A stretch of 14,421 bases of DNA from contig BAAFSQ010000249.1 in assembly GCA_054661495.1 (NCBI GenBank), positions 1 to 14,421 on the forward strand, in the 5' to 3' direction. Within the stretch, counting starts at the first letter, position 1. Each line of letters opens with the position of its first letter. Under the pieces are notes generated by a model, which had not been told where the DNA came from, searched no databases, and saw only the letters and a list, made by a program, of their open reading frames with translations. Of this stretch, positions 2,986 to 11,570 are shown piece after piece. The position numbers and the translations under genes were made by a program. This DNA is from Zygophlyctis sp. KS116. Its lineage: Eukaryota > Fungi > Chytridiomycota.

Positions 2986-3038
2986 CAGTTTTTAATTAGA
3001 TAGGTATCGGGATAATAGAAATCCTACATTTTGGTGTT
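2985..3038 (+). repeat. 54-nt templated insertion at the duplication junction, copied from CYC8 intron 3/exon 4
   Basis: ACAGTTTTTAATTAGATAGGTATCGGGATAATAGAAATCCTACATTTTGGTGTT is identical to 7573-7626, in the same orientation. Confidence 0.97.
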
Positions 3039-4424
3039 TCTCCCCAAATTATAATGAAAGGATTTAGAAAAGGATGTGATTTAGTAATTTTATTTTTAAT
3101 TTTTAATATTAGGCTGTGAATAAAATTAAAGAAATTGCAGTCACTATTGAAAAATCCAATGAAAAGGAATTTAGAAGTCTTTTGGAAAAATGTGCTGCAA
3201 CTGCAATGTCTTCAAAATTGATTCATTCTCATAAAGACTTTTTCACAAAAATGGTTGTAGATGCTGTAATGTCTTTAGATCAAGAAGAACTAAATGAAAA
3301 CTTGATTGGGATTAAAAAGGTTGCTGGAGGTGCAATGGAAGACTCTTTGTTAGTTGCTGGTGTTGCTTTTAAAAAGACTTTCTCTTATGCTGGGTTTGAA
3401 CAACAACCAAAAAGTTTTAAAAATCCAAAGATTCTTTCATTGAATGTAGAATTAGAATTAAAGGCAGAAAGAGATAATGCAGAAGTTCGTATTGAACATG
3501 TAGATGTATGCTTGAAAACTTTTTTTTATAATGATTTAGGATTATCAGTCTATTGTTGATGCAGAATGGTCAATCATTTATGATAAACTTGAAAAAATTG
3601 TTGCGACTGGTGCAAAGGTGGTCTTATCTAAACTTCCTATTGGAGATTTAGCTACCCAATATTTTGCTGATAGAGATATTTTCTGTGCTGGTCGAGTGGC
3701 TTCAGGTGATCTTAATAGAGTGGTAAAGGCTGTTGGAGGTGCTGTTCAAACGTCTGTAAATGATATTGAAGAAAAACACTTGGGACGTTGTGAATCATTT
3801 GAGGAAATTCAAATAGGAAGTGATCGTTACAATCTTTTTGTGGGATGTCCAATCGCTAAAACATGTACTCTAGTGCTACGTGGTGGAGCTGAACAATTTA
3901 TTGCTGAAGTGGAACGCTCCCTTCATGATGCAATCATGATTGTACGACGTGCAATCAAAAACAAGACTGTTGTCGCTGGTGGTGGAGCCACTGAAATGGT
4001 TTTATCTAGCTATCTCCGTCAGCACTCTCGAACTATTGAAGGAAAACAGCAAATGATTATTGCAGCAATGGCAAAAGCTTTAGAGATTATTCCTCGTCAA
4101 CTTTGTGATAATGCTGGTTTTGACGCAACAGATATTCTCAATCAACTCCGTCAAAAGCACTCCAAAGGTATAATTTGAATTTTTTAAACAAAAGGGTTTA
4201 ACTGGTATGGTGTCGATATGGAATCGGAATCAATTGCAGATAATTTTGAAAAGTTTGTCTGGGAGCCTGCGCTCGTTAAAAGTAATTGTATCTCTGCAGC
4301 TACAGAAGCAGCCTGCTTGATTCTATCTGTTGATGAAACTGTCCGTAATGCGCAGGCTGATAAGCCTGACATGGGAATGCCTCGTGGACGTGGAAGAGGA
4401 GGTCGTGGAAGAGGTCGTAGATAA
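3032..4424 (+). pseudogene. CCT7: 5'-truncated duplicate of CCT7, lacking the promoter, exon 1 and most of exon 2
   Basis: It starts within exon 2 at GVSPQIIMK and lacks the LGPRG and GDGTT nucleotide-binding motifs. Introns are at 3084-3112, 3506-3539 and 4168-4194. The first in-frame ATG is at 3054 (equivalent to Met122). Confidence 0.88.
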
Positions 4425-4628
4425 AAAAGACTGTAAAAGAAAAACTAATTCTTTCAAAACTTTTTATTGAGAAAATGCAACCCCCTACTAATCTAAAGAT
4501 ATATTCACTACGATAACCTAGAATATAAATCAAAAAAATGACTTACCGTGCTATTGGAATAGCACACCGCAAGCTGGTCACCTTTATGGGACCAGGCCAC
4601 TTCGAAAACACCACCATTACCTGCATCA
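3032..4628 (+). repeat. Tandem segmental duplication, copy 2
   Basis: Matches 1389-2985. It continues without a break into the intact TBL1/SIF2-like gene. Confidence 0.97.
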
Positions 4629-6233
4629 TAGTTTTTAACAATAGAGCCATCCTAAGTCTAAGTAAAAGATAATCTACCTTTATATTTCGAATTATAAACT
4701 TTTGATCAAATGATCCACTGGCTAAATATAGAGAATCTGGACTAAAGGCGACAGTATAAACAGCTTCTTGATGGTCTTGGAATTTATAGATACAGCAGCC
4801 AGCTAAAACATCAAATACTCTTACAGTGAAATCAAAGGATCCACTAAATGTTTAAGTCTAAAGATAATTCTTACGAGGCAATCAATTTCTTATCCGAATG
4901 GGGTGGGTTCCAACGAATTGTATAAATTTCTTTTTCGTGCCCAGTTAAATCGCACTTTGGATCTTCCGAATCCATTGTCCAAACCTTGACTGTATAATCA
5001 TCAGAGCAAGAAGCCAAGTACACGCCAGAAGGATCCCATCTTATAGCATTAACTTCCCCTTTATGTCCTGAAAACTGTTGAAGTGGTGCTAAAGAACCTA
5101 ATTGACATACAAATATTTGTTTATCATTTGAACATGTAGCAAATGTAATATCATCCCTCCAATCTACATCTAAACAAGGAGCTGAATGAAACTCAAATTG
5201 TTGCCTTACTTCACCAGAGGAAGGATCCCATACTATAGCAGTCTTGTCTACACTACCTGTAAGAAGAACATCCCCTTTTTTATTCCATTTTACAGCAAAT
5301 ATCGGCCCAGTATGTTTTTTGAGAATAGTCTTCATTTTCCCTAATTTTCAATATTATTAAAGTCTTACCTTGAATCGTCCAAATCCTAGCAATCCCATCA
5401 TATGAACCAGTAGCCAGCACTTGACCAGTTGGATGCCAATCTAAAGTTGTAACATCTTTAGTATCAGACTCTGAAGCATGTTGTAGTACTATTGGAGGAG
5501 CTTTAGAATCATTTATAGACCATATTCTTGCAGTCCCATCTCCTGACCTAAACCTTGAGATAAAGTAAAAATACCCAGTAGCAATCCATTCATCATCTCT
5601 ATTCCAAGCACAAGTAAAAACCTCTGCCGAATGACCATGATAACTAACCCAGTCTGATTTTTCCTGTATTATAATTGGAGAATCCATGTCCATACTATCC
5701 TTGCCATCTTCTTGTAAAGCACTATTTGCCATGACAGTGTTTGCCATGAGAGTATTTTCCATGACAGTGTTTTCCATGACAGTATTTGCCATGACAGTAT
5801 TTTCAAGAGTAGCTGGAACTAGCGGTACAAAAGCATTTGAAGGACTATCAAAACCTTGCCCATCAAGAGTTGGAAGAGTCTTTTTGTCCGGAATATGAAA
5901 TGTTTCCTGAAATTCCTCTTCTTCAACTCGTTGATTTTCAAGTATTTCACTTGGATCTGGATAAATTTGACATTCATGCGCCCCCAATAGTGTGAATGGA
6001 GCCAAACATTTTACAATATTACCTTGCGGCGAGACATGTGCTTCCAAAGACATATACAATAAACCCTTTTGTAGTATTCTTATTAAAAAACCTGGACCCA
6101 CTTGTGATCCCTTTATATCAGATTTTAGAATCCCAGACTCGTTTGCAAAAGAGAAACTAGAATGAGAGAACCCAGACTCTGTCAGATAGCGATAAATCAA
6201 ATAATTTATCTCATCAGAAGTGAGATTTGTCAT
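4488..6233 (-). CDS. SIF2: TBL1/TBL1XR1/Sif2-like LisH + WD40 corepressor subunit, about 534 aa, 6 exons
   Basis: The N-terminal LisH sequence [26 protein letters not shown] and WD40 repeats ([40 protein letters not shown]) are typical of TBL1. Introns 5574-5548 (27 nt), 5368-5341 (28), 4874-4844 (31), 4677-4652 (26) and 4546-4518 (29) give a 1605-nt CDS ending in TAG. The ATG is at 6233. Confidence 0.92.
5723..5812 (-). repeat. Coding 15-nt minisatellite (5 units plus 1 degenerate), encoding (E/A)NT(V/L)M pentapeptides in the LisH-WD40 linker
   Basis: On the + strand: tatttgccatgacag tgtttgccatgagag tattttccatgacag tgttttccatgacag tatttgccatgacag tattttcaagagtag. Confidence 0.93.
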
Positions 6234-6492: not shown

Positions 6493-8107
6493 ATGTCAAA
6501 AGCAGAATTAACAAAACTGACTCAATTGAATGAAAGTACTTGGATAAAACTAGGGAATTTAGCAAGTGAACTCTTGCCTTTTGAAAAAACTGTAAACTGT
6601 TATGAAATGGCTCTTCGTAGCTCTCCATTCTCAACTGATGCATTGAATGGATTGGCAACTTGTTATAGGAATCACGAACTCTATGGACAGGCTGCAGATA
6701 TATATCAAAGGTAAATATTATATTTTTCTACTTTTCTACTATTTCTACTATTTCTCTACTATTTCTCTAAATTCTAAATAAAATTATTTAGCGAAATTAT
6801 AGAAAATTAGAGGAAATTATTTAGCGAAATTATAGAGAAAATTAGAGAAAAATTATAGAGAAACTAATGCACTAGACTCATCAATTTACTTCCTCATAGT
6901 GGTGATACTTGGGGTGCGCTAGGTCATTGTTATTTAATGATGGATGAATTACAAAAAGCTTATTCTGCTTATCAACAGGCTCTATACTATTTAAAAAATC
7001 CTAGAGAACCGAAATTATGGTATGGAATAGGGATACTATATGATAGATATGGGTCTTTTGAGCATGCGGAAGAGGCTTTATGCGCAGTTTTACAAATGGA
7101 TCCGCATTTTGAAAAAGCAAATGAAATTTATTTTAGATTGGGAATTATTTCAAAACAACAAGGGAAATTTGAAACTGCTATAGAATGTTTCGAGTATATA
7201 TTAAATAATCCTCCTCCGCCATTAACAAGGAATGATGTCTACTTTCAGCTTGGTAAGAATAGGAAGGGATTCTAATGGATAGGTCATGTATATGAACAAC
7301 AATCTCAATCAGAAAAATCAAAAAATATATATGAATCTATTTTAAAGGAAAATCCTAATCATTCAAAGGTTTTGCAACAATTAGGTTGGTTATATCAAGA
7401 TACTAAAACAAACTTTCATGATGCAGAAAAGGCTATAAGTTTGTTACTAAAGTCTTTGGAAGTGGATGGAAAGGATGCTCAGTCTTGGTATTTGTTGGGA
7501 AGATGTTATATGCATCAACAAAAATATAATGAGGCGTATGATGCTTATCAACAAGCAGTGTATTTAAATTTTACAGTTTTTAATTAGATAGGTATCGGGA
7601 TAATAGAAATCCTACATTTTGGTGTTCAATTGGTGTTTTATATTACCAAATTAATCAATTTTCAGATGCTTTAGATGCATATGGACGTGCTCTTAGATTA
7701 AATCCTTATATTAGTGAAGTTTGGTAATCTATAAATTCTCTTATGATAGGTATGATTTAGGAACTTTATATGAATCTTGTAATAATCAAATCCCAGATGC
7801 AATTGATGCTTATTCTCGTGCACTTGAATTGGATCCTAATAATGCACAAATAAAGCAAAGACTGACTGCTCTTAGACAATCTCAAACTGCTACAAGTGTA
7901 AACTCTTCCACACCTTCTTCATCTGGAATTGCTTCTAGTAATATTCCTTCTACTCAGCAGCTACAGCGACTTTCTGTAGGCCTACCTCAAGTTGGAACAC
8001 CAAACTTGAATCCAACTCCAATTCCTAGTATGGACGCTGGTAAATCTAACCCAGACACGATTCCCAGGATTCAAAAGCCTTTAGATAATTCATCTCATCT
8101 AAAATAG
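6493..8107 (+). CDS. CYC8: Cyc8/Ssn6-like TPR general transcriptional corepressor, about 453 aa, 5 exons
   Basis: Splicing introns 6711-6875 (165 nt), 7253-7282 (30), 7560-7591 (32) and 7724-7749 (26) gives a 1362-nt CDS. It carries Ssn6 hallmark sequences WGALGHCYLMMDELQKAYSAYQQAL, PKLWYGIGILYDRYGS, AYQQAVYRDNRNPTFWCSIGVLYYQINQ and SEVWYDLGTLYESCNNQ. Confidence 0.94.
6711..6875 (+). other. 165-nt intron 1 of CYC8, filled by an imperfect fold-back of complementary simple repeats
   Basis: GTAAAT donor, ACTAAT branch site at 6863-6868 and CTAG acceptor. The left arm is (TTTCT[CT]ACTA)n-like and the right arm (TAGAGAAAAT)n-like. The centre is CTAAATA-aaat-TATTTAG at 6774-6791. Confidence 0.85.
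7573..7626 (+). repeat. Donor sequence of the 54-nt junction insert
   Basis: Identical to 2985-3038. Here it is integral to the CYC8 gene (acceptor site plus YRDNRNPTFWC), so this is the original copy. Confidence 0.95.
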
Positions 8108-8762: not shown

Positions 8763-10094
8763 ATGAAACCAAAGTCTTGTACAATCATTCTACGATGCAT
8801 GAGTAATGCAGCTATAAAGGAAAATATTTTGATGAAATTTAAATCGGATTCAATGACTAATGTTCCTGAATCTATTTTATCAAAAACAAGGATTCGGTTG
8901 CACAATATTCCGAATTCTCCGCTCTGCATACTCAAAGAGAAAATTCAGAATTGGTTTGATAAGAGTGAAGAGGGGATTTATGAAAAAGTGTCAATGAAAA
9001 GTCCAATCGTCTCAATCAGAGATAATTTTGATGCTCTATTAATTCCTAAAAATCATATTTCTAGATCTAGATCTGATACATATTATATAAATTCTGATCA
9101 TGTTTTAAGGACTCATACATCTGCACATCAGTCAAGTTTACTATCGAGTAAAAGTTCAATGGGATATCTTGTGACCGCTGATGTTTATAGGAGAGATGAA
9201 ATAGATGCTACTCATTATCCAGTGTTTCATCAAATGGAAGGAATAAGGTACAGTTTCTTGAATGATTTGATTTTTCGCAAATTTAGTACTAACGGAAAAA
9301 GGTTGTTTTCAAGAAATGAATTGGAATTAGAAAAAATGACTCCAAAGATTAATGCACTTGCTGTAAAGAATTCTAGTATACAGGTAACAGATACGGAACT
9401 TTCTACTGAAAATGGATATCAATCGGGTCATTTGGTTTTAGAACAACCAGTGGTTACTAAACATTTAAAGAATCATTTGGAGGGTCTTTTTGCTCATCTT
9501 TTTCAGAGTGACAAGCAAGATTCTCCTCTTAAAATGAGATGGATTGAAGGGTATTTTCCTTTTACTCAGCCGAGTTGGGAATTGGAAGTTGAATTCAGAG
9601 GGAAATGGTTAGAAGTTTGTGGATGTGGAATGATTCAACAAAAGATATTAGAGTCTACTGGGAATCATGATCAAGTTGGTTGGGCGTTTGGTTTGGGCCT
9701 AGAACGGATTGCAATGGTTCTTTTTGATATTCCAGATATCAGACTTTTTTGGTCAAATGATGATAGATTTGTGTCGCAATTTGAATCTGGAAAGATTTCA
9801 AAGTTTGTTCCTTTTTCAAAGTATCCTTCTTGTTACAAGGATATAAGTTTTTGGTGTGACAAATCTTTTCATGATAATGATTTTTCTCAGATTATACGTG
9901 ATGTTGCAGAGGATTTAGCAGAATCTGTCTCGCTGATTGATACCTTTGTTCATCCAAAATCAGGAAAAACAAGCAAATGTTATAGAATTCAATATAGATC
10001 CTTTGAAAGGACTCTTGCGAATGATGAAGTGGATAAGCTACATGAAAATGTCGGGAAAATGCTAGTTAAAGTTTGGAATGTTGAAATACGCTAA
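8763..10094 (+). CDS. MSF1: Mitochondrial phenylalanyl-tRNA synthetase (monomeric, with C-terminal anticodon-binding domain), about 425 aa after splicing
   Basis: Motifs LRTHTSAHQ, DVYRRDEIDATHYPVFHQMEG, YFPFTQPSWELE, GWAFGLGLERIAM and a C-terminal FDX-ACB domain are present. A probable in-frame 54-nt intron at 9248-9301 (GTACAG...TACTAAC...AAAG) is read through by the ORF track. Confidence 0.95.
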   Translation: MKPKSCTIILRCMSNAAIKENILMKFKSDSMTNVPESILSKTRIRLHNIPNSPLCILKEKIQNWFDKSEEGIYEKVSMKSPIVSIRDNFDALLIPKNHISRSRSDTYYINSDHVLRTHTSAHQSSLLSSKSSMGYLVTADVYRRDEIDATHYPVFHQMEGIRYSFLNDLIFRKFSTNGKRLFSRNELELEKMTPKINALAVKNSSIQVTDTELSTENGYQSGHLVLEQPVVTKHLKNHLEGLFAHLFQSDKQDSPLKMRWIEGYFPFTQPSWELEVEFRGKWLEVCGCGMIQQKILESTGNHDQVGWAFGLGLERIAMVLFDIPDIRLFWSNDDRFVSQFESGKISKFVPFSKYPSCYKDISFWCDKSFHDNDFSQIIRDVAEDLAESVSLIDTFVHPKSGKTSKCYRIQYRSFERTLANDEVDKLHENVGKMLVKVWNVEIR

Positions 10095-10112: not shown

Positions 10113-11570
10113 TTATAACAATCTATCTTTTGGTTCTTTCCAAGGCTCCCCTTTCAATTAATTTTTGTAAAATCTTAATTACCTAGAGCTTCAAAGACTT
10201 CCATTTCCGTTTTACTGGCAATTCTATTTACAGAGCCATCATGTTCTACTAAGAACAACCCATGTTGACTTAATTTCATTCCTTTAGCCTTTGCCGATTG
10301 CCGTAAACGACGATTAAACAAGTCATTTCCAGTCCATTGAATCAATGTAGATCCCAGTTCATCAATGGGAACTATGACAATATCTATTCTTCGCCATAAT
10401 GATCCTGGAACATTCAACTTACAAAGTCCTTTATAAAGGTCATGATCGATAGAGAGGTCTGTAAGATGTATCATCTCCATGCCAAATTCTTCTATTTTCT
10501 GTAAAATCAGCTTCATTGAGTGACCAGATGACCATTTTGAATCCGAATGCGTGACTTTGATTTAGTTTAACCTCTTACTAACAAAATCCGCATCTCCAAA
10601 TTCAGACTCTTCTTTTCTAAAAGATCCCGCCATGAAAACCAAAAATCCAGAATCTACTTTTTTGATTGCGTCCGAAACTATTTTATGGATTTGAATCATT
10701 TCTTCGCACCCAATTTTTGTATTAATATCAGAGTAATACTTTAAACCAATCTTCTGATCATGAGTCAACTGCTCCTCATGCTTTTGCACATCCTCTAAAC
10801 TTCTCCAACCCATTTTATACCACTTACTGGCAATTGCATCACCCACACCATATATCCCCTTGAATAAATTAACTACTCTGTCAATCTCTTCAATATTTGG
10901 AATAGCTAATTTTCCTGATTTTAATATTTCGTCAATCTATATAATGTAAATTGGCAATACATACCTTTTCAGCAATCGATTTCCCAACATGTGGCAGCGT
11001 TTGTGCTTGTTTTCCAGACGTTATAATCTGATTTGAATCTATAATACTCTGTATAGCTTTTCTATAAGCCAAAACTTTAAATTTATCCTTTTTTAGTTTA
11101 TGATAATTCATGCGATTCACTAATTCTTGAATCAGTAAATCATTTGATTTAATAAGTGGTTCCTCCTGCATTCCTGAACCAGTTTTTGAATCTTGTTGGC
11201 GTTCTATAATATTAATAAGGGATCAAATATAAATCCTCTGGATGTTATACTTGATGAGAAACATCATTACTTTTAGCAGGTGAAATTACACGATTTACCG
11301 GCATCAATCGCCCATTCTCAATGCAGTCATCAATCCATCTGATATCAACCCAGTTCAAGTTATGATTGAATTTAACGGGAAGACCATTCTTTGATCTTGT
11401 ATTTGCACTTAGTACATAATCAACGTCATCTGAATATTGATCAACGATGGTGCCACCTTTTGTTAGAAAATTTCCTTACCAAAAGAGGACCATTTCTGAC
11501 TTAATAACTCTAGAAACTTTGACTCTATACTAGGCGATATCCATAGCTTTAATTTACTGAATAATGGCAT
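10113..11570 (-). CDS. Family X DNA polymerase (Pol4/lambda/mu-like) with N-terminal BRCT domain, about 427 aa, 6 exons
   Basis: ATG at 11570. Introns are 11479-11457 (23 nt), 11270-11204 (67, donor uncertain), 10964-10937 (28), 10578-10555 (24) and 10182-10151 (32). Motifs include BRCT (FGGTIV...WIDDCIENGRL), 8-kDa/HhH (AYRKAI, LPHVGKSIAEKI, IYGVG), catalytic GDADF and RRIDI, WTGN..FNR.LR, LSQHGL, and C-terminal EPKDR. Confidence 0.9.

What the first reader, a model, noticed from the sequence alone, without database searches (positions are those of the whole stretch)
6711..6875. The only long intron folds back on itself, leaving an effective length of about 24 nt, the size of the tiny introns
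Seen in sequence: after 12 nt of donor region (6711-6722) there is a G-free arm of TTTCTA/TTTCTCTA repeats (6723-6780). A perfect 7-bp apex (CTAAATA/TATTTAG) follows, then a nearly C-free arm of TAGAAAA/TAGAGAAA repeats (6785-6863). This arm stops exactly at the branch site, leaving 12 nt (CTAATGCACTAG). The right arm has an internal duplication (6781-6812 and 6814-6847). Inference: a spliceosome tuned to a donor-to-branch distance typical of 23-34-nt introns may tolerate long introns only when co-expanding complementary repeats loop out the excess. Structure-shortened introns are known in yeast and from complementary repeats in fish introns, but I do not know of this as a rule in a tiny-intron fungus. 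A decayed foldback element is an alternative. This is a single example.
Basis: partly seen in the sequence, partly recalled or inferred. Interest (0 to 1): 0.78.

Follow-up and report, generated by a model that had tools for sequence, protein, structure and literature searches.

The report
Fold-back long intron in tiny-intron chytrid
In a freshwater chytrid fungus whose introns are mostly about 28 bases long, one intron is 165 bases (27 in a close relative) and is filled by two oppositely oriented repeats predicted to fold back and likely keep it short enough to splice, a trick already proposed for Giardia-like protists and yeast.

Summary
The 165-nt intron (6711-6875) in an SSN6/CYC8-like gene is real by homology; no RNA covers it. 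The arms are as described. The host is a chytrid: 17 of 20 modelled introns are 23-34 nt. A close relative (L001) has a 27-nt intron at the same site, so this one likely expanded. Near-identical haplotypes in public DNA runs carry different arrays that still look complementary. Folding is only modestly above chance (z about -2). The predicted effective length is 26-28 nt, but shuffles that keep each arm's composition give 30-33 nt, so that match is weak evidence. 'Only long intron' is wrong: a 54-nt intron (no significant fold) and a candidate 67-nt intron with a significant 15-bp hairpin (18 of 2000 shuffles) also occur. The latter is independent support for the rule. The hypothesis is already published for diplomonads and Trichomonas (PMC6679479), yeast zipper stems and fish repeats; my searches found no chytrid case. 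The scan noted a related fold-back in another fungal genome (e1-7704857). Verdict: a new, lineage-specific variant of a known kind; function untested.

The parts
6493..6710 (+). Exon 1 of SSN6/CYC8-like TPR gene (ATG at 6493)
   Evidence: (TPR matches); the gene name is recalled from likeness to fungal Ssn6/Cyc8, no call names it
6711..6875 (+). 165-nt phase-2 GT-AG intron; orthologue in L001 is 27 nt (L001:1802-1828)
6711..6722 (+). 5' splice site and AT-rich spacer; holds the only GT of the intron
6723..6780 (+). Left arm: G-free tandem array, 8-11 nt units around the core TTTCTCTA; no AG before position +81; 10 nt shorter in run X3
6774..6791 (+). 7-bp inverted repeat with 4-nt loop (apex); not kept in X4/X6 haplotypes
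6785..6863 (+). Right arm: nearly C-free array whose reverse complement has the same core; 33-nt period duplication; 11 decoy AGs with predicted pairing 0.73-0.99 at 37 C
6864..6875 (+). Predicted branch motif (CTAAT, branch A 6867, 8 nt before the end) and TAG acceptor
   Evidence: branch point inferred from consensus only
6876..7252 (+). Exon 2 (TPR repeats); followed by introns of 30, 32 and 26 nt (7253-7282, 7560-7591, 7724-7749)
   Evidence: a 26-nt gap at 7723 in one RNA contig of run X24, depth 2
11204..11270 (-). Second long intron candidate (67 nt, shortest frame-restoring choice) in a BRCT-PolX gene; 15-bp hairpin at about 11255-11222 that covers a decoy donor (11250) and decoy AGs at +21, +33, +35
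   Evidence: boundaries inferred, no RNA or homologue check
9248..9301 (+). 54-nt in-frame intron in mitochondrial PheRS gene; weak 6-bp hairpin, no better than shuffles

Best explanation
A tiny intron of about 27 nt likely expanded in this chytrid lineage into two oppositely oriented AT-rich repeat arrays that are predicted to pair, which would loop out about 140 nt and likely lets a spliceosome tuned to 23-34-nt introns still remove it. Shown: intron position and size, the 27-nt orthologue, the arm composition, variation among haplotypes. Inferred: one short unit (core TTTCTCTA) came to lie in both orientations, probably by a template switch or fold-back during replication (mechanism class in PMC8794818, abstract); each arm then grew or shrank by slippage on its own. 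Because the arms are built of short repeats they can pair in many registers, so unequal arms do not matter. Pairing would bring the donor within about 15-20 nt of the branch site and bury the 11 decoy AGs of the right arm. Selection would act as a filter (expansions that do not fold back or that create a GT or an early AG are lost) rather than as lockstep co-expansion. That splicing depends on the fold is untested.
For: Orthologue 27 nt, with neighbouring L001 introns of 25 and 25 nt. Median of 17 tiny introns in the window 28 nt. Effective length 26-28 nt and unchanged in an X3-like haplotype. Orientation controls: native -26.7 kcal/mol, right arm reversed -15.7, complemented -1.3, one-type arrays 0 to -2.4 with effective lengths 51-150. 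Random pairs of tandem arrays reach 28 nt or less in 26 of 400 trials. Constrained MFE beaten by 3 of 150 whole-intron shuffles at 37 C and 7 of 150 at 20 C. X4 and X6 have near-identical exons but another right-arm array, which by eye holds a perfect 13-nt complement of window 6761-6773 (their own left arm has 2 unplaced differences in that stretch). No internal GT (0.0007 of mononucleotide shuffles, inflated because repeats are not independent). Independent second case: 67-nt candidate, 18 of 2000 shuffles and 3 of 370 background tiles as stable, flanks 15 + 18 nt. Precedent: PMC6679479, PMC12350175, PMC4691745.
Against: No RNA evidence for this intron or its structure (no spliced protein found). 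Stability is modest: z -1.76 unconstrained; against arm-wise dinucleotide shuffles z -1.66 and -1.29, with 43-45 of 150 shuffles as short. Shared 6- to 8-mers between arms do not exceed that null (326-705 of 2000). 61 of 400 random array pairs fold as stably and 89 of 400 reach 34 nt or less. The 54-nt intron folds worse than most shuffles (182 of 200). With flanking exons the donor and part of the branch motif are themselves predicted to pair. Yeast modelling requires at least 42 linker nt and a stem ending 20 nt or more from the branch point (PMC12350175, methods passage); this stem ends within a few nt, so it must breathe or this spliceosome must differ. Direction of change rests on two lineages only.
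Confidence: 0.55

Rival explanations
1. Neutral by-product. The spliceosome handles 50-170-nt introns without help. A chance inverted copy plus slippage made two complementary microsatellite-like arms, and the fold has no role in splicing.
For: Arms change independently and quickly. Folding only about 2 SD above shuffles, and about 10% of background tiles do as well. The 54-nt intron lacks significant structure. Short end-to-end distance is generic for folded RNA (PMC3017586, abstract). Template switching can make and keep stems without selection (PMC8794818, abstract).
Against: A second, non-repetitive long intron candidate has a significant hairpin. Different arrays in X4/X6 still look complementary. 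One-sided expansion, the simpler mutational outcome, is not what is seen.
Confidence: 0.27
2. Signal avoidance and masking rather than a length ruler. The G-free left arm avoids an early AG, the right arm avoids GT, and pairing matters mainly because it hides decoy splice sites.
For: First internal AG at +81, no internal GT, 11 decoy AGs paired 0.73-0.99; none of them restores the frame. Where the left arm's CTAC units would call for a donor-like GTAG, the right arm has ATAG or TTAG (decomposition). The 67-nt hairpin covers a decoy donor and a decoy AG at +33.
Against: No AG in the first 40 nt is unremarkable (0.23 of shuffles). Avoidance alone does not need C in the left arm opposite G in the right. 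It overlaps with the best explanation and is hard to separate from it.
Confidence: 0.11
3. Decayed foldback or MITE-like element, or an introner-like element, inserted into or creating the intron.
For: Overall inverted-repeat layout; foldback elements with tandem sub-repeats in their arms exist (recalled). The intron position was not seen in 72 other loci (some may be transcripts).
Against: The site holds an ordinary 27-nt intron in L001, so the long form did not create the intron. No target-site duplication or terminal inverted repeat is evident. Arms are 70-86% complementary low-complexity arrays that differ between haplotypes. No second copy in 706 kb searched, of which only about 17 kb is from this clade, which is a weak test.
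Confidence: 0.06
4. Not one intron: two tiny introns around a small or poison exon, a nested intron, an intronic ncRNA, or an amplification artefact.
For: An earlier scan note describes such a case in another fungus (e1-7704857). The window holds an assembly chimera elsewhere.
Against: No internal GT; first AG at +81; only GC dinucleotides at 6791, 6824, 6869 in poor context. No Rfam match at E up to 1. One X3 contig spans the whole stretch with a variant array, and X4/X6 carry related arrays.
Confidence: 0.01

Closest known systems
Structure-shortened long cis-introns of Giardia lamblia, Spironucleus spp. and Trichomonas vaginalis (PMC6679479; restated in PMC11760441)
   Same: Short uniform intron mode, with rare long introns predicted to fold so that the single-stranded length falls to the short mode (35-45 nt in Giardia, 25-44 nt in Trichomonas). 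Prediction only, as here.
   Different: Those are intron-poor metamonads with fixed branch-to-acceptor spacing and strong motifs. This is an intron-rich chytrid with weak branch motifs, repeat-built arms, a 27-nt orthologue in a close relative and array turnover among haplotypes.
Saccharomyces zipper stems (PMC12350175)
   Same: Fungal intronic stems that shorten the donor-to-branch distance; poorly conserved in sequence between species.
   Different: [quoted passage not shown] Here the linker is about 15-20 nt and nothing is probed.
Teleost (AC)m-(GT)n introns (PMC4691745)
   Same: Complementary simple-repeat expansions at opposite ends of an intron bridge it.
   Different: Dinucleotide repeats, one shared motif in about 10% of zebrafish genes, tied to U2AF2 independence and shown by experiment. 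Here 8-11-nt units fill the whole intron at a single locus.
Hypoxylaceae internally symmetrical (stw)introns and fungal introner-like elements (PMC8469720)
   Same: Fungal introns with inverted repeats that may form double-stranded RNA.
   Different: Those are multi-copy families at new gene positions with 45-55-nt terminal inverted repeats. Here the site predates the expansion and no copies are known.
Microsporidian long Poly-A/S23 introns (PMC6349667)
   Same: Rare long introns with a predicted stem-loop amid short introns in a fungal relative.
   Different: Those are sequence-conserved across species with an extended branch point and a possible RNA function. This one is hypervariable, has an ordinary branch motif and is absent as a long form in L001.

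Membership tests
Structure-shortened long introns (metamonad type) | Most introns uniformly short | tested here: met
   17 of 20 modelled introns 23-34 nt, median 28; one 26-nt gap seen in an RNA contig
Structure-shortened long introns (metamonad type) | Long introns predicted to fold to a single-stranded length near the short mode | tested here: met
   Effective medians 26-28, 35 and 29 nt for the 165-, 67- and 54-nt introns
Structure-shortened long introns (metamonad type) | Folding exceeds chance across the long class | tested here: inconclusive
   1 clear (18 of 2000), 1 marginal (10 of 200), 1 negative (182 of 200); no genome held
Structure-shortened long introns (metamonad type) | Splicing depends on the stem | not testable with these tools
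   Needs reporter assays
Saccharomyces zipper stem | Stem of 6 bp or more between donor and branch point | tested here: met
   About 45 expected left-right pairs, predicted only
Saccharomyces zipper stem | Linker 42-85 nt, stem ending 20 nt or more from the branch point | tested here: not met
   Effective whole-intron length 26-28 nt; definition from PMC12350175
Teleost (AC)m-(GT)n introns | AC repeats at the 5' end and GT repeats at the 3' end | tested here: not met
   Units are 8-11 nt; no internal GT
Introner-like element, MITE or foldback element | Multiple dispersed copies | tested here: inconclusive
   No blastn hit in 706 kb, only about 17 kb of it from this clade
Introner-like element, MITE or foldback element | Creates a new intron position (introner) or shows terminal inverted repeats with a target-site duplication (MITE) | tested here: not met
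   27-nt intron at the same site in L001; no such ends by inspection
Stwintron or two tiny introns around an exon | Internal donor and acceptor | tested here: not met
   No internal GT; first AG at +81
Intronic snoRNA or other Rfam family | Match to a covariance model | tested here: not met
   0 matches at E up to 1 for 6600-7000

The most novel reading that the evidence does not exclude
This uncultured chytrid lineage has a spliceosome with a hard ruler of about 23-35 nt: every intron that outgrows it survives only by folding back, whether through a compact hairpin (67-nt intron) or through fast-evolving complementary repeat arrays (165-nt intron) that turn over within populations while staying paired. 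It would be an intron-rich fungus in which the rule can be tested on many introns and caught evolving from a 27-nt ancestor.
Probability: 0.35. Interest if true: 0.68.

Novelty: new variant of a known kind. Interest (0 to 1): 0.45.

Why it matters
The claim that RNA folding lets short-intron spliceosomes accept long introns rests, outside yeast and fish, on predictions for a few introns in intron-poor protists. An intron-rich chytrid with a 28-nt mode gives many test cases in one genome. This locus also supplies a before-and-after pair (27 vs 165 nt) and natural alleles with different arrays, so one can ask whether pairing is kept by selection or merely made by replication errors. It also matters for annotation: gene finders tuned to tiny introns would break such genes. 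If the genome-wide test fails, it is an ordinary polymorphic repeat expansion.

Tried and rejected
No whole genome is held, so the genome-wide test and the search for dispersed copies remain open. RNA runs X17, X22, X23, X24 gave one short contig each, none over the long intron; lack of cover says nothing. A search with exon 1 for longer, spliced proteins found none among 32 candidates (weak). Prokaryote genome contigs gave 2 loci, neither of this clade; viral contigs gave none. Earlier-findings look-ups by place and by sequence were empty. A 47-nt intron reading in the PolX gene was dropped because it does not restore the frame; a 20-nt reading of a TBL1-like intron was replaced by 26 nt. A 12-of-13 likeness between the L001 intron and the end of the left arm is chance-level (768 of 2000 shuffles), so no relic of the ancestral intron is claimed. 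k-mer sharing between arms is not above an arm-wise dinucleotide null. A MAFFT alignment of window and L001 across the intron misplaced the gap and was not used. The human PheRS alignment did not resolve the 54-nt intron; fungal homologues did. The CCT7 tree is the quick tree only; it places the window among chytrids with no supported sister. Full sequences of the X4 and X6 introns were not available, so their folds were not computed. Small-share runs were not used as evidence of habitat. Paper searches for a chytrid or fungal tiny-intron case listed none; only titles and abstract starts of those listings were seen, and subscription journals are missing.

Full report
Setting. The window is gene-dense, about 34% GC eukaryotic DNA. 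CCT7 and mitochondrial PheRS have their best named matches among Chytridiomycota (85-87% and 50-56%); a quick CCT7 tree of 61 rows puts the window among chytrids with no supported sister. The two other runs holding over 90% of the words are freshwater metagenomes; X1 and X2 may be the source of the window. No whole genome is held. I modelled 20 introns in six genes by reading frame: 17 are 23-34 nt (median 28), the others 54, 67 and 165 nt. I did not model the last gene of the window or the 5' end of the PolX gene. One 26-nt intron appears as a gap in an RNA contig (run X24, depth 2).

The intron. The gene starting at 6493 encodes a 453-residue TPR protein like fungal Ssn6/Cyc8 (name recalled). 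Read-through stops at the donor. Of four frame-restoring choices, 6711-6875 is the one that keeps the repeat intact, and the spliced protein aligns without a gap over the junction in 72 of 74 loci that span it, of 80 tested. No RNA contig covers it, so the boundaries rest on homology. The left arm and the reverse complement of the right arm both break into units around the core TTTCTCTA. The right arm has a 33-nt period duplication.

Is the fold more than chance? Modestly. Unconstrained MFE is -27.1 kcal/mol, z -1.76, 10 of 200 shuffles as good, and the MFE structure is 0.13% of the ensemble; 14 of 146 background tiles reach that z. With splice signals held open, 3 of 150 (37 C) and 7 of 150 (20 C) whole-intron shuffles fold as well; the effective length has a median of 28 and 26 nt against 37 and 34 for the shuffles. 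Shuffling each arm separately keeps most of the effect (medians 30-33 nt; 43-45 of 150 dinucleotide shuffles as short), so the information lies in the opposed composition of the arms, not in an exact register. That opposed composition is unusual (8 of 1394 overlapping tiles) and is what makes the fold: reversing the right arm costs 11 kcal/mol, complementing it abolishes folding, and one-type arrays stay 51-150 nt long. Random pairs of tandem arrays reach 28 nt or less in 26 of 400 trials and fold as stably in 61 of 400. Folded RNA ends are generically close (PMC3017586, abstract), so the match to the tiny-intron size is weak evidence by itself.

History. L001, a relative with the same head-to-head TBL1-like neighbour (94% protein identity in exon 2; exon DNA 74% and 84% identical), has a 27-nt intron at the identical site and 25-nt introns at the next two. 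Expansion in the window's lineage is the simpler reading, but two lineages do not prove direction. Public DNA contigs show the array varies among near-identical genomes. X2 matches the window. X3 lacks 8 + 2 nt of the left arm only; a model of it folds to the same effective length. X4 and X6 have exons at 99% or more but a rearranged left arm and another right-arm array without the 7-bp apex; by eye the first 30 loose letters of each hold a perfect 13-nt complement of window 6761-6773, with the caveat that their own left arm has two unplaced differences there and that these contigs have depth 2-4. So the arms are not co-expanding in lockstep, yet the two-armed complementary layout persists. 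This also rules out an amplification artefact for this intron.

Other long introns. The 54-nt PheRS intron is an exact 18-codon insertion absent from 8 of 8 non-conspecific homologues covering the site; it has only a 6-bp predicted hairpin, no better than shuffles (173 of 300 constrained; 182 of 200 unconstrained). In the BRCT-PolX gene the shortest single intron that restores the frame is 67 nt (11270-11204, minus strand; 21 longer options exist). It contains a 15-bp hairpin: 0 of 200 constrained shuffles at 37 C, 18 of 2000 unconstrained, 3 of 370 background tiles as extreme, leaving 15 + 18 unpaired nt and covering a decoy donor and decoy acceptors. Of the two introns picked by length alone, one supports the rule and one does not test positive.

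Decoy sites. The 165-nt intron has no internal GT and no AG before +81; its 11 internal AGs all lie in the right arm, none restores the frame, and each is predicted paired at 0.73-0.99. This excludes the two-tiny-introns layout suggested by an earlier scan note on another genome (e1-7704857) and adds masking as a second possible role. Against the model, with flanking exons the donor and part of the branch motif are also predicted to pair, and yeast modelling would not allow a stem this close to the branch point (PMC12350175, passages), though a 28-nt intron breaks those limits as well.

Mechanism. Most likely (0.55) a permissive fold-back: an inverted copy of a short unit arose, plausibly by template switching (PMC8794818, abstract and opening), both arrays drifted by slippage, and forms that still collapse to the tiny-intron distance and add no usable splice site were tolerated. 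Rivals: neutral by-product (0.27), masking without a ruler (0.11), decayed mobile element (0.06), other architecture (0.01).

What is known. PMC6679479 (passages of abstract, results, discussion and methods) states the same hypothesis for Giardia, Spironucleus and Trichomonas; PMC11760441 (passages) and PMC10711314 (passages) discuss it. Yeast zipper stems are probed in vivo (PMC12350175, passages). Complementary repeat expansions bridge fish introns (PMC4691745, abstract and introduction). Symmetric fungal introns spread as families (PMC8469720, abstract). Microsporidian long introns are conserved (PMC6349667, passages). PMC13644364 (passages) lists lineages with introns under about 30 nt as ciliates, microsporidia, dicyemids and myxobolids; the passages I saw name no chytrid. 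Four searches listed no chytrid case; I saw listings only, opened no supplements, and subscription papers are missing. The finding works like the metamonad system, fails the published definitions of a zipper stem, a fish repeat intron and an introner, and differs by lineage, by repeat-built arms and by visible recent turnover. Interest 0.45: the principle is known and the statistics here are modest, but the locus and organism make the rule testable.

Noticed in passing
window:11204-11270 (minus strand): Candidate 67-nt intron in a BRCT-PolX gene with a near-perfect 15-bp hairpin that hides a decoy donor and a would-be 33-nt decoy intron; second case of a folded long intron in the window.
   Followed up: partly
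window:9248-9301: 54-nt stop-free in-frame intron in mitochondrial PheRS with a full TACTAAC branch motif; ORF callers read through it (P0121 keeps the 18 extra residues).
   Followed up: yes
window:2985-4638: 1607-nt near-exact duplicate (99.9%) of 1389-2995 (most of CCT7 and the TBL1-like 3' end) at 3032-4638, joined through a 54-nt piece identical to 7573-7626 of the SSN6-like gene; most likely an amplification or assembly chimera.
   Followed up: partly
window, 17 introns: An intron-rich chytrid with a 23-34-nt intron mode, weak branch motifs and several AAG acceptors (2551, 9301, 11457, 10555, 10151); my paper searches listed no chytrid with such tiny introns.
   Followed up: partly
window:5574-5548 and 5368-5341 (minus) vs L001:600-900: Two TBL1-like gene introns of the window (27 and 28 nt) appear absent from L001 by inspection: recent intron gain or loss between close relatives.
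   Followed up: no
window:5723-5802: 15-nt coding tandem repeat (5.3 copies) in the TBL1-like gene linker, not evident in L001; another sign of lineage-specific slippage.
   Followed up: no
window:6872 (run X4): A C>G difference in one low-depth contig would create a tandem CAG-TAG acceptor at the end of the long intron, in frame.
   Followed up: no
window:6478-6493: Run of 16 A directly upstream of and including the start of the SSN6-like start codon.
   Followed up: no
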